Shown here: piece by piece, positions 15,016-17,472 of the stretch
Layout of the letters: every line of letters starts with the position of its first letter
Position numbering within the stretch: position 1 is the first letter of the stretch
The notes under the pieces: generated by a model
The model's database searches: none
What the model saw: the letters and a program-made list of their open reading frames with translations, nothing else
What the model was told of the DNA's origin: nothing
From: Escherichia coli
GTDB lineage: Bacteria > Pseudomonadota > Gammaproteobacteria > Enterobacterales > Enterobacteriaceae
Assembly: GCF_029227855.1 (NCBI RefSeq)
Contig: NZ_CP074356.1
Length of the DNA: 64,000 nt
Reading direction: 5' to 3' (one strand)
Program-made: the position numbers and the translations under genes

Positions 15016-15034
15016 CAAATCAGATAATAAATAT

Positions 15035-15058
15035 CCTCCGGCATAGCCGGAGGTTTTT
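15035..15058 (+). terminator. rho-independent terminator of mltD
   Basis: CCTCCGGC-ata-GCCGGAGG stem followed by TTTTT. Confidence 0.75.
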
Positions 15059-15061
15059 CAA

Positions 15062-15742
15062 ATGCGCCTATAAGGCTCTCTTACCAGCCGCGCCCTAACA
15101 GGCGCACACGATCTGACATTTGCATCCAACTTCGTTACTTACGGCCCGTAAACGGGCTGCCCGGATAGGGAATCGATAACTGCTCTCCCATTTTATCCTC
15201 TTCAAGCTGGTGCTTTATGTAATCCTGTATCTTCGCCGTGTTCTTACCCACTGTATCGACGTAGTACCCTCTGCACCAGAACTCCCTGTTCCTGTATTTG
15301 AATTTCAAATCACCAAACTGCTCGTAAAGCATCAGACTGCTTTTCCCTTTCAGATATCCCATAAACCCGGATACGCTCATTTTGGGCGGGATCTCCACAA
15401 GCATATGGATATGATCTGCACAGCATTCAGCTTCCAGAATCCGTACGCTTTTCCACTCACACAGCTTTCTCAAAATACTGCCTATTGCTCTACGCTTCTC
15501 TCTGTAGAACACCTGTCTTCGGTATTTTGGCGCAAAAACTATGTGATATTTACAGTTCCATCGGGTGTGCGCTAAGCTCTTTTCGTTCCCCATTGGGACC
15601 CCCTTTTGATTTCTTGTTTGACACTTGCAGTTGCCAGACCGCAAAGTGTTTTAACAAATCAAAAGGGGTTTTAATAACTGGCTCAAAGCTGAAAGCTTTC
15701 CGGAACCCCCAGCCTAGCTGGGGGTTTTCTGTGCACAATGAA
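15062..15742 (-). mobile_element. IS200-family insertion sequence (IS200/IS605 family), boundaries approximate (+/-30 bp)
   Basis: Single 152-aa Y1 transposase ORF; perfect palindrome AACCCCCAGC-cta-GCTGGGGGTT at 15704-15727; 5' UTR inverted repeat 15596-15672 pairing with the SD; ~0.7 kb extra DNA between convergent mltD and yafE. Confidence 0.65.
15135..15593 (-). CDS. tnpA: IS200-family transposase TnpA (HUH Y1 transposase), 152 aa
   Basis: MGNEKSLAHTRWNCKYHIVFAPKYRR...HIHMLVEIPPK... with HUH motif; start at internal ATG 15593 with GGGGG SD. Confidence 0.85.
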   Translation of the reverse strand: MGNEKSLAHTRWNCKYHIVFAPKYRRQVFYREKRRAIGSILRKLCEWKSVRILEAECCADHIHMLVEIPPKMSVSGFMGYLKGKSSLMLYEQFGDLKFKYRNREFWCRGYYVDTVGKNTAKIQDYIKHQLEEDKMGEQLSIPYPGSPFTGRK

Positions 15743-15743
15743 A

Positions 15744-15770
15744 GGCACCGATTCCCCCGGTGCCTTTTTT
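15744..15770. terminator. hairpin downstream of yafE stop (likely native yafE/mltD terminator)
   Basis: GGCACCG-attcccc-CGGTGCC with A-run on one side and T6 on the other. Confidence 0.5.
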
Positions 15771-15772
15771 AT

Positions 15773-16543
15773 TTATGCTGCTTTATGTGCTTCTACAATG
15801 ATGATATCACTGGTGAAAGAGCCATCATTCTGCAAGGCAAAATACGTTTTCACCTCTGTCGATGCGCTCTGTTGGTAAATGCGAATAGCGTCTACTAACG
15901 CTTCTGGCGTACGCATTCTCGCGACCCATGAAGAAAATTCCAGCGGTAACTTATCTGTAATTAAATTATCAACTATCAGATTGGCTTCATTGATTAACGT
16001 CAACCACTCACCGCTGGCGTAGTTTCGTACGTGAGAGGTATCGCGTAATGCTTCTACCGTCTGTAACCAGACGTCGCGCACTGGGTGCCCCGGAGACATT
16101 ACGTCCATCACAATCAGCCTACCGCCAGGTTTCAATATCCTATTCACTTCTCGCAGTGCTGCACCAACATCATGCCAGTGATGGGCAGAATAACGGCTGA
16201 TAACAATATCAAATGCGTTATCGGCAAATGGCAGACTTTCGACATAACCCTGGCGGGTGGTGATATTTTTCAGTTGCCGGGCTTCGGCAGCTTGTGCCAC
16301 GACATCCAGCATGTGGGCAGATAAGTCATACGCCACCACCGCGCTCACGTTCTGCGCAGCGACAAAGCTGGCATGCCCTGCTCCGCAGCCCATATCAAGT
16401 ACACTTGCATCAGGATAATCAGCCAGACGCACCGCCAGGCGCTGTAAATCCCGTCCGGATGCATGTACGGTACTAGTCAGATATTCGCTAGCTTGAGAGC
16501 TAAACTGCTTTTCTACGTGGTCATGGTGGGATTGTGATGTCAT
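15773..16543 (-). CDS. yafE: SAM-dependent methyltransferase YafE; full ORF 256 aa
   Basis: Contains SAM-binding motif VLDMGCGAGH; longest ORF annotated, shorter internal starts possible. Confidence 0.8.
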   Translation of the reverse strand: MTSQSHHDHVEKQFSSQASEYLTSTVHASGRDLQRLAVRLADYPDASVLDMGCGAGHASFVAAQNVSAVVAYDLSAHMLDVVAQAAEARQLKNITTRQGYVESLPFADNAFDIVISRYSAHHWHDVGAALREVNRILKPGGRLIVMDVMSPGHPVRDVWLQTVEALRDTSHVRNYASGEWLTLINEANLIVDNLITDKLPLEFSSWVARMRTPEALVDAIRIYQQSASTEVKTYFALQNDGSFTSDIIIVEAHKAA

Positions 16544-16620
16544 TGCGCTGTCCTTTTGTTGTTTGAGTATAAAAGGGCAGCGCCAAACGTTGGTCTGCCC
16601 TGTGGCAGACCTGACATACC

Positions 16621-17472
<852 letters not shown>

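What the first reader, a model, noticed from the sequence alone, without database searches (positions are those of the whole stretch)
15773..16543. yafE: long ORF keeps the SAM-binding motif that shorter starts would truncate
The 256-aa ORF places the glycine-rich methyltransferase motif VLDMGCGAGH around residue 50. An internal start at the Met inside that motif (a shorter annotation I recall for some references, from memory only) would remove the beginning of the motif, so the longer start is more plausible biologically.
Basis: inference. Interest (0 to 1): 0.2.

Follow-up and report, generated by a model that had tools for sequence, protein, structure and literature searches.

The report
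Intact yafE methyltransferase; K-12 copy is truncated
The 256-codon reading frame is the correct, full-length form of an ordinary E. coli methyltransferase gene, and the shorter "reference" version in laboratory strains K-12, B and C comes from a 221-base deletion that removed the cofactor-binding motif, not from a different start codon.

Summary
Window 15773-16543 (minus strand) is a 256-aa ORF, and VLDMGCGAGH is residues 48-57 (M51 inside it).

The long start is right:
- An invariant AAGGA Shine-Dalgarno lies 7 nt upstream of the ATG.
- Orthologues in more than 20 enterobacterial genera are 256 aa with the same start.
- Codons 2-47 show the same purifying selection as the rest (pN/pS 0.20 in both).
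- M51 is Leu or Val in many genera.
- RefSeq already annotates this 256-aa CDS, so the start is not new.

Internal-start annotations do exist but are rare: 206 aa from M51 (AVS49332.1) and 219 aa from GTG-38.

The well-known short form has a different cause. K-12 YafE (207 aa) comes from a 221-bp deletion (window 16362-16582) between 11-bp direct repeats. The deletion removed the SD, the start codon and codons 1-60, including motif I. It fused the remainder to an accidental ATG in the yafD-yafE spacer.

About 30% of 5,426 complete E. coli genomes carry the deletion, including K-12, B/BL21, C and NCTC86. This fits a 2025 report that purified MG1655 YafE does not bind SAM.

Side observation: the spacer is a conserved, structured RNA that pairs the SD and AUG. 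It has no Rfam match.

The parts
15773..16543 (-). Intact yafE coding sequence, 256 aa: a class I SAM-dependent methyltransferase of the YcgJ/BH2331 type
   Evidence: ORF list; Pfam Methyltransf_11 E 2.7e-27; the same CDS in RefSeq; 256-aa orthologues
16541..16543 (-). ATG start codon of yafE, the start supported here
   Evidence: First start after the in-frame stop; invariant ATGAC in 13 and 40 orthologous spacers; 3-nt periodic variation begins here
16551..16555 (-). Shine-Dalgarno AAGGA, 7 nt upstream of the ATG
   Evidence: Coordinates checked; AAGGA invariant in all 40 spacers, AAGGACA in the 13-genus set
16373..16402 (-). Motif I, the SAM-binding glycine loop VLDMGCGAGH, residues 48-57
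   Evidence: Translation; G52, C53, G54, A55, G56 and H57 invariant across 24 orthologues
16391..16393 (-). Internal ATG (M51), rejected as the start
   Evidence: No SD upstream (sequence); Leu in 6 of 11 other genera and Val in others; annotated as the start in only 3 contigs
16430..16432 (-). Internal GTG (V38), rejected as the start
   Evidence: Glu in all non-Escherichia orthologues; annotated as the start in 2 contigs
16362..16582 (.). 221-bp segment present here but deleted in K-12, B, C and about 30% of complete E. coli genomes. It holds part of the spacer, the SD, the start codon and codons 1-60
   Evidence: Alignment with K-12; present in 3809 of 5426 genomes; junction 40-mers found in 1328 + 270 genomes
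16577..16587 (-). Upstream copy of the direct repeat, TTTGGCGCTGC, at the deletion endpoint
16356..16366 (-). Downstream copy of the direct repeat, TTTGTCGCTGC, at the deletion endpoint
16544..16620 (-). yafD-yafE spacer (77 nt), a conserved structured leader of yafE
   Evidence: MFE -33.1 kcal/mol, z -5.4; conserved blocks; 95% of pair cells paired against 33-43% in slid controls
16592..16611 (-). Hairpin 1, GGUCUGCC-ACAG-GGCAGACC
   Evidence: single copy in the window
16571..16583 (-). Anti-SD arm GCGCUGCCCUUUU. It pairs with 16545-16557, or its CUGCCC pairs with GGGCAG at 16595-16600 as a terminator-like helix followed by a U-run
16545..16557 (-). SD-containing arm AAAAGGACAGCGC, paired with the anti-SD arm
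16621..17421 (-). yafD (endonuclease/exonuclease/phosphatase family), the conserved upstream neighbour and probable operon partner
   Evidence: synteny in 11 genera; no promoter-like site found in the spacer
15740..15768 (.). GC-rich hairpin with T-runs directly after the yafE stop codon, a terminator-like site
   Evidence: conserved in K-12 and PK6

Best explanation
Window 15773-16543 (minus strand) is the intact allele of E. coli yafE. It encodes a 256-aa class I (Rossmann-fold) SAM-dependent methyltransferase. The closest solved relatives are B. subtilis YcgJ and B. halodurans BH2331, and it resembles small-molecule methyltransferases more generally. Its substrate is unknown.

Translation starts at ATG 16543-16541, served by an invariant AAGGA 7 nt upstream. 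The gene is probably co-transcribed with yafD (inferred). Residues 1-47 are predicted helices that carry a conserved YxTSxxHAxGxDL block. They precede strand beta-1 and the glycine loop (motif I, residues 48-57) that binds SAM.

Shorter versions have two causes:
1. Rare gene-caller errors that start intact alleles at M51 (206 aa) or GTG-38 (219 aa).
2. A real 221-bp deletion between 11-bp imperfect direct repeats (TTTGGCGCTGC and TTTGTCGCTGC). It removed the SD, the start codon and codons 1-60, and fused codon 61 onward to an accidental ATG three bases after the yafD stop codon. The result is the 207-aa K-12 'YafE' (MSGLPQGRPTFG-AAQNVS...).

That K-12 protein has no beta-1 strand and no motif I, so it is most likely a dead remnant.

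Shown here: the anatomy, the conservation, the deletion and its frequency. Inferred: the catalytic function, the role of the N-terminal helices, and loss of function of the K-12 allele. The last inference agrees with a published negative SAM-binding assay.
For: ORF and motif.

Family: Pfam Methyltransf_11 full-length match, E 2.7e-27; PDB YcgJ 1XXL E 1.3e-37 and BH2331 1VL5 E 1.1e-30, the latter aligned from residue 20; AlphaFold model matched by Foldseek to 1XXL and 1VL5 at TM 0.75-0.83, followed by MitM, TleD, RebM and AtmM.

Start:
- SD AAGGA and ATGAC are invariant in 13 and then 40 orthologous spacers, and third-position periodicity begins at the ATG.
- All orthologues are 256 aa with 100% coverage.
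- 22 of the first 47 residues are invariant in 24 orthologues.
- pN/pS is 0.20 for codons 2-47 and 0.20 for codons 48-256.
- M51 becomes Leu or Val and V38 becomes Glu in other genera.
- RefSeq annotates 256 aa here.

Deletion:
- K-12 alignment and translation; BL21 has the same 207-aa CDS.
- The segment is present in 3809 of 5426 genomes.
- Junction variants occur in 1328 and 270 genomes.
- Outgroup genera all have the long form, so the deletion is derived.
- PGAP labels some deletion alleles 'missing N-terminus'.

Function loss: purified MG1655 YafE showed no SAM binding, whereas YafS bound with Kd 0.68 uM (PMC12096079).
Against: There is no direct experimental N-terminus for the intact allele. 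The commonly used initiation-site and proteomic strains are K-12 (from my own knowledge), and K-12 and BL21 both carry the deletion. The AlphaFold model is only moderate: mean pLDDT is 74.8, and residues 1-30 score 48-62. The structural role of the N-terminal helices is therefore not established. The K-12 remnant still scores 83 bits against Methyltransf_11, and it was purified as a soluble protein, so a residual non-catalytic role is not excluded. The published SAM assay used tryptophan fluorescence only.
Confidence: 0.93

Rival explanations
1. The real start is the internal ATG at M51 (206 aa), and the upstream 50 codons are untranslated leader that happens to be open.
For: A few GenBank records annotate it this way (AVS49332.1, HAI1531545.1). 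The length is close to the 207-aa K-12 reference.
Against: Codons 2-47 are under the same purifying selection as the rest (pN/pS 0.20 in both). M51 is Leu in 6 of 11 other genera and Val in others. There is no SD before it. It would remove strand beta-1 and the conserved Asp of motif I. An N-terminal block is conserved as far as Bacillus BH2331.
Confidence: 0.02
2. Both starts are used: the full-length enzyme, plus an N-truncated isoform from M51 or GTG-38 with a separate (for example regulatory) role in E. coli.
For: Internal ATG and GTG codons exist in E. coli alleles. The SD and AUG of the long start appear to be sequestered in RNA structure, which could favour leaky internal initiation.
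Against: Neither internal codon is conserved outside Escherichia. Neither has a recognisable SD. A protein that starts inside motif I would lack the central beta-strand.
Confidence: 0.03
3. The short K-12 form is ancestral, and the 256-aa form arose by insertion of 221 bp in other E. coli.
For: None beyond K-12 being the reference.
Against: Citrobacter, Salmonella, Klebsiella, Enterobacter and more than 15 further genera all carry the homologous 5' region and 256-aa protein in the same synteny. The K-12 N-terminus is encoded by spacer hairpin DNA. The endpoints are direct repeats, as expected for a deletion.
Confidence: 0.01
4. The K-12-type 207-aa YafE is still a working methyltransferase that uses its chimeric N-terminus (G-L-P-Q-G) as a substitute glycine loop.
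For: It passes Pfam thresholds (83 bits). By chance the chimeric N-terminus matches G..G...F.AAQ of the original. The allele is frequent, and its ORF is kept open in K-12 and B.
Against: It has no beta-1 strand, the middle Gly is replaced by Pro, and the motif I Asp is absent. The purified protein did not bind SAM. Some carriers have further frameshifts and are flagged as pseudogenes.
Confidence: 0.04

Closest known systems
E. coli K-12 YafE (b0210, UniProt YAFE_ECOLI, WP_000016007.1, 207 aa)
   Same: Same locus (yafD-yafE-mltD). Residues 61-256 of the window protein correspond to residues 12-207 of K-12 YafE with a handful of substitutions.
   Different: K-12 lacks window 16362-16582, which holds the SD, the start and codons 1-60 including motif I. 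Its first 11-12 residues come from spacer DNA. It does not bind SAM in vitro. RefSeq gives the symbol yafE only to this truncated form.
B. subtilis YcgJ (PDB 1XXL, 2GLU) and B. halodurans BH2331 (PDB 1VL5)
   Same: Best sequence matches among solved structures (E 1.3e-37 and 1.1e-30) and best fold matches (TM 0.75-0.83, 31-33% identity). They share the C-terminal subdomain, and BH2331 shares the N-terminal YxTSxxHAxGxDL block.
   Different: Only about 31-33% identical. Both are structural-genomics proteins with no assigned substrate, so they do not reveal the function.
UbiE/MenG C-methyltransferases (TIGR01934, PF01209)
   Same: Same class I fold and motif I. Some sources name the orthologues 'UbiE'.
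   Different: Scores 75.7 bits against a cut-off of 158.35 for TIGR01934, and well below the cut-off of every UbiE/MenG equivalog. It is not a member.
Natural-product small-molecule methyltransferases (MitM, TleD, RebM, AtmM, GPP methyltransferase)
   Same: Next-best structural neighbours (Foldseek E about 1e-15, TM about 0.6). This suggests a small-molecule rather than nucleic-acid substrate.
   Different: 17-24% identity, and no biosynthetic cluster context. Here the conserved partner is yafD, an EEP-family hydrolase.

Membership tests
Class I SAM-dependent methyltransferase (Pfam Methyltransf_11 / Methyltransf_25) | Motif I: acidic residue followed by GxGxG at the end of strand beta-1 | tested here: met
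   VLDMGCGAGH at residues 48-57; D50, G52, G54 and G56 invariant in 24 orthologues
Class I SAM-dependent methyltransferase (Pfam Methyltransf_11 / Methyltransf_25) | Acidic residue at the end of strand beta-2 (ribose contact) | tested here: met
   D73 in VVAYDLS is invariant and aligns with the Asp of YcgJ (GVDAT)
Class I SAM-dependent methyltransferase (Pfam Methyltransf_11 / Methyltransf_25) | Full-length match to the family profile above the curated threshold | tested here: met
   PF08241 95.7 bits (cut-off 21.2), profile positions 1-95 of 95; PF13649 84.2 bits
Class I SAM-dependent methyltransferase (Pfam Methyltransf_11 / Methyltransf_25) | Rossmann-like alpha/beta fold | tested here: met
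   AlphaFold model (pLDDT 74.8, core blocks 84-95) with alternating strands and helices; Foldseek 1XXL/1VL5 probability 1.00, TM 0.75-0.83. Moderate-confidence model
Class I SAM-dependent methyltransferase (Pfam Methyltransf_11 / Methyltransf_25) | Binds SAM and transfers a methyl group | not testable with these tools
   The only experiment found used the K-12 deletion allele and was negative (PMC12096079). The intact protein has not been tested
YcgJ/BH2331 subfamily | Significant end-to-end similarity, including the C-terminal subdomain after the core fold | tested here: met
   1XXL covers query residues 45-237; 1VL5 covers 20-254
UbiE/MenG quinone C-methyltransferase | Score above the NCBIfam/TIGRFAM trusted cut-off | tested here: not met
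   TIGR01934 75.7 bits against 158.35; PRK00216 equivalogs 49-67 bits against 216-378
Known RNA families (Rfam 15), for the yafD-yafE spacer | Match to any covariance model | tested here: not met
   No match up to E = 10 on window 16350-16750

The most novel reading that the evidence does not exclude
The 77-nt yafD-yafE spacer (window 16544-16620) may be an undescribed cis-regulatory RNA conserved across Enterobacteriaceae.

In its lowest-energy fold:
- A closing helix (GUCA with UGAC) buries the AUG.
- An 11-bp helix (GCUGCCCUUU with AAAGGACAGC) buries the SD.
- A central GGGCAGRCC segment can pair either with an upstream arm (hairpin 1) or with CUGCCC followed by a U-run (a terminator-like helix).

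This would make a switch. Ribosomes terminating at the yafD stop codon, 10 nt upstream, could drive it (structural translational coupling), or a ligand or temperature could.

The K-12, B and C laboratory strains have lost its 3' half together with the yafE 5' end. K-12-based screens could therefore not have found it, and all K-12 'yafE' phenotypes and biochemistry have been obtained on a dead allele.
Probability: 0.3. Interest if true: 0.45.

Novelty: already known. Interest (0 to 1): 0.25.

Why it matters
For this window, nothing needs correcting. The 256-aa start is the right one and is already in RefSeq.

The useful result is about the reference strains. The yafE of K-12, B and C is a deletion remnant without the SAM-binding motif. 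This explains a published negative SAM-binding result. It also means that Keio delta-yafE phenotypes, screens for RNA or protein methyltransferases, and 'y-ome' efforts that use K-12 cannot reveal the function of this conserved enterobacterial enzyme. Such work should use an intact allele like the one in this window.

The locus also shows how an annotation can mislead: a truncated protein keeps a family name because most of the domain still scores, while the gene symbol is attached only to the broken form.

Tried and rejected
- UbiE/MenG identity, suggested by some source names, is rejected because every NCBIfam score is far below its cut-off.
- I considered whether spacer hairpin 1 is a REP-like dispersed repeat. 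The window holds one copy, and each enterobacterial locus the genome-contig scan returned held one copy at yafE. The other matches were unrelated palindromes in distant taxa.
- Rfam gave no match for the spacer.
- The sigma-70 scan found no promoter-like site in the spacer on the gene strand. The only minus-strand site is upstream of yafD. I therefore assume co-transcription but did not show it.
- The AlphaFold model was meant to show how the N-terminal helices cap the SAM site. Confidence for residues 1-30 is too low (48-62) to claim this.
- Literature searches for yafE with yafD, Escherichia or methyltransferase found no description of the K-12 deletion or of any substrate. The library covers open-access full text only.
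- The Klebsiella 277-279-aa forms are upstream over-extensions through the spacer and are not conserved.
- I could not decide whether the two junction variants (TTTGG and TTTGT) are two deletion events or one event plus a substitution. The flanking SNPs are mixed.
- My first count of the anti-SD helix on alignment A8 was one column out of register. One search supersedes it.

Full report
THE OBSERVATION. The ORF finder lists an ORF at exactly 15773..16543 on the minus strand, with an ATG start and 256 aa. Its translation carries VLDMGCGAGH at residues 48-57, which is window 16373-16402. The Met inside the motif is residue 51, at 16391-16393. Pfam matches Methyltransf_11 over the whole profile (residues 49-145, E 2.7e-27) along with several sister families. 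The window is E. coli. The region is 100% identical to strain JNEC-KY178, where RefSeq annotates the same 256-aa CDS (WP_001521855.1) between yafD and an IS200C copy.

WHICH START IS USED.
- Sequence around the start. ATG 16543-16541 is the first start codon after the upstream in-frame stop. AAGGA (16555-16551) lies 7 nt before it.
- Conservation of the start region. I aligned the yafD 3' end, the spacer and the yafE 5' end from Citrobacter, Salmonella, Klebsiella and Enterobacter. I then extended this to 13 and to 40 distinct orthologous spacers. AAGGA and ATGAC are invariant throughout, and AAGGACA is invariant in the 13-genus set. Substitutions take on a three-base periodicity exactly from the ATG onward.
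- Protein length. Orthologues in more than 20 genera are 256 aa and cover 100% of the query.
- N-terminal conservation. Twenty-two of the first 47 residues are invariant in 24 orthologues.
- Selection. Across 12 genera, codons 2-47 have mean pS 0.674 and pN 0.136 (ratio 0.20). Codons 48-256 have pS 0.716 and pN 0.143 (ratio 0.20). The N-terminal 47 codons are therefore translated and constrained like the rest.
- Deep conservation. The block Y21-L-T-S-x-V-H-A-S-G-R-D-L33 aligns with M-Y-V-T-S-Q-I-H-A-K-G-S-D-L of Bacillus halodurans BH2331, PDB 1VL5.
- The alternative starts are not conserved. M51 is Leu in 6 of 11 other genera and Val in Pluralibacter and Pseudescherichia. V38 (GTG) is Glu in all non-Escherichia orthologues. 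Neither has an SD.
- Structure. An AlphaFold model predicts helices at 3-22, 25-28 and 31-40, then strand beta-1 at 47-50. Confidence for residues 1-30 is low (48-62), so I do not claim a specific structural role for them.

THE SHORTER ANNOTATIONS. This very allele is annotated from M51 (206 aa; AVS49332.1, HAI1531545.1; 3 contigs) and from GTG-38 (219 aa; AVJ72810.1; 2 contigs). The 256-aa form is on at least 1000 contigs. These are minority gene-caller choices.

The well-known short form is something else. K-12 YafE (207 aa, YAFE_ECOLI) begins three bases after the yafD stop codon and reads MSGLPQGRPTFGAAQNVSAVV.... Alignment shows that K-12 lacks 221 bp, equal to window 16362-16582. The lost segment holds the 3' half of the yafD-yafE spacer, the SD, the start codon and codons 1-60, including strand beta-1 and motif I. 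The endpoints are 11-bp imperfect direct repeats: TTTGGCGCTGC (16587-16577) and TTTGTCGCTGC (16366-16356). This 10-of-11 match is specific to Escherichia; other genera differ at both sites. All outgroup genera have the long form in the same synteny (yafC, sometimes an MFS gene, yafD, yafE, mltD, gloB, yafS), so the deletion is derived.

HOW COMMON THE DELETION IS.
- The 221-bp segment is present in 3809 of 5426 complete E. coli genomes.
- A 40-mer across the K-12 junction (…ACGTTTGG CGCTGCGC…) occurs in 1328 genomes. These include MG1655, BW25113, MC4100, DH1 and XL1-Blue. NCTC86 has the same junction.
- A variant junction (…TTTGT CGCTGCGC…) occurs in 270 genomes, including the B lineage (BL21, C41), E. 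coli C and some O145 strains. BL21 is annotated with the same 207-aa chimeric CDS.
- Together these make 1598 genomes (29.5%). About 19 genomes remain unaccounted for.
- I could not decide whether the two junctions are separate events at the same repeats or one event plus a substitution.
- PGAP labels some carriers as pseudogenes 'missing N-terminus' (65COLEC), and NCTC86 is additionally frameshifted.
- Other E. coli alleles carry independent in-frame deletions. Strain A21 has an 84-bp deletion in the N-terminal region. Database proteins of 243, 236, 250, 225 and 222 aa lack strand beta-2 or other core segments. This suggests relaxed constraint on yafE within E. coli.

FUNCTIONAL CONSEQUENCE. 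The K-12 protein still scores 83 bits against Methyltransf_11, which explains why it keeps its family name. It has no beta-1 strand, however, and its N-terminus reads G-L-P-Q-G where the enzyme has G-C-G-A-G. A 2025 study cloned yafE from MG1655 and purified it from BL21(DE3). It found no SAM-dependent fluorescence change and no methyltransferase activity, whereas YafS bound SAM with Kd 0.68 uM (PMC12096079). The passages I retrieved from that paper do not mention the deletion. My reading (an inference) is that the negative result reflects the missing motif. Other papers used Keio delta-yafE or Salmonella yafE only as members of candidate lists, and a Dickeya proteome lists the orthologue as Lon-dependent. 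No substrate is known, and no paper in the searchable library describes the deletion.

WHAT THE PROTEIN IS.
- The best solved relatives are B. subtilis YcgJ (1XXL, E 1.3e-37) and BH2331 (1VL5, E 1.1e-30). The model superposes on them with TM 0.75-0.83.
- The next structural neighbours are small-molecule methyltransferases (MitM, TleD, RebM, AtmM, GPP methyltransferase, BioC).
- Every NCBIfam equivalog, including UbiE/MenG, is far below its cut-off.
- I therefore file it as a class I SAM-dependent methyltransferase of the YcgJ/BH2331 type, probably acting on a small molecule. It is not UbiE.

THE SPACER (side finding). The 77-nt yafD-yafE spacer is more conserved than synonymous sites in the flanking genes. 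Its invariant blocks are GTCAGGyCTGCC, GGGCAGrCy, GyGCTGyCyTyT and AAGGACA. As RNA it folds at -33.1 kcal/mol, with z = -5.4 against shuffles. The fold has two parts: hairpin 1 (16611-16592), and a helix that pairs GCGCUG.CCUUUU (16583-16571) with AAAAGG.CAGCGC (16557-16545) and so buries the SD.

A scan of species-representative genomes with the hairpin pattern added 31 enterobacterial loci, each directly upstream of yafE. On the resulting 40-sequence alignment, RNAalifold adds a closing helix, GUCA with UGAC, that includes the UG of the start codon. For this 'closed' structure:
- 95.1% of pair cells are standard pairs, against 33-43% when partners are slid.
- Three pairs show compensatory double changes (11 cells).
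- No shuffle out of 500 reaches the observed covariation score.

A mutually exclusive helix, GGGCAGRCC with GGyGCUGCCC followed by a U-rich run, is 98% pairable but shows no double changes.

Caveats apply. Hairpin 1 was the search pattern for 31 of the sequences. Most paired columns never vary. The sequences are related to one another. There is no Rfam match.

A plausible but untested mechanism is structural coupling of yafE translation to yafD translation, or attenuation. The K-12 deletion starts inside this element, and the K-12 chimeric ORF begins inside hairpin 1.

VERDICT. The finding is correct and ordinary: the long start is right and is already annotated that way. What the analysis adds is that the short reference form comes from a common deletion allele, fixed in the classical laboratory strains, that removes the SAM-binding motif. 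In addition, the lost region includes half of a conserved, apparently structured leader.

Noticed in passing
window 16544-16620 (minus strand): The yafD-yafE spacer is a conserved structured RNA. It has hairpin 1, an 11-bp helix that sequesters the yafE SD, and a closing helix that includes the AUG. There is also a mutually exclusive terminator-like alternative. It has no Rfam match, and its 3' half is lost in K-12, B and C.
   Followed up: partly
window 15031-15740: A 710-bp IS200C element (tnpA ORF within 15135-15644, minus strand) is inserted between the yafE terminator hairpin and the 3' end of mltD, directly beside the hairpin. The identical strain JNEC-KY178 shows 24 matching places for a query that includes the IS end, so it carries many copies.
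   Followed up: partly
L006 (E. coli A21) 1240-1926; proteins P0005-P0008, P0012, P0058: Further independent in-frame deletions of yafE occur in E. coli: 84 bp in the N-terminal region of A21, and alleles of 243, 236, 250, 225 and 222 aa that lack strand beta-2 or other core segments. This suggests ongoing decay of the gene within the species.
   Followed up: partly
RefSeq annotation of E. coli genomes: PGAP attaches the gene symbol yafE only to the truncated K-12-type allele, and intact alleles get no symbol. The same deletion allele is a normal CDS in K-12 and BL21 but a pseudogene ('missing N-terminus') in 65COLEC and NCTC86.
   Followed up: yes
L001 1584-2207 (K-12 yafE): By chance the chimeric K-12 N-terminus (MSGLPQGRPTFGAAQ) resembles the lost glycine loop (DMGCGAGHASFVAAQ) at G, G, F and AAQ. 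The truncated protein still scores 83 bits against Methyltransf_11, which hides the loss from domain-based annotation.
   Followed up: yes
P0052, P0064 and similar (Klebsiella, 277-279 aa): Some Klebsiella yafE annotations are over-extended upstream through the spacer (MGQACACMVLPF...).
   Followed up: yes
L008, L009, L010 about 310-1500, compared with L001-L003 and L007: Salmonella, Klebsiella and Enterobacter have an MFS transporter gene between yafC (a LysR regulator) and yafD. It is absent in E. coli and in the C. koseri locus.
   Followed up: no
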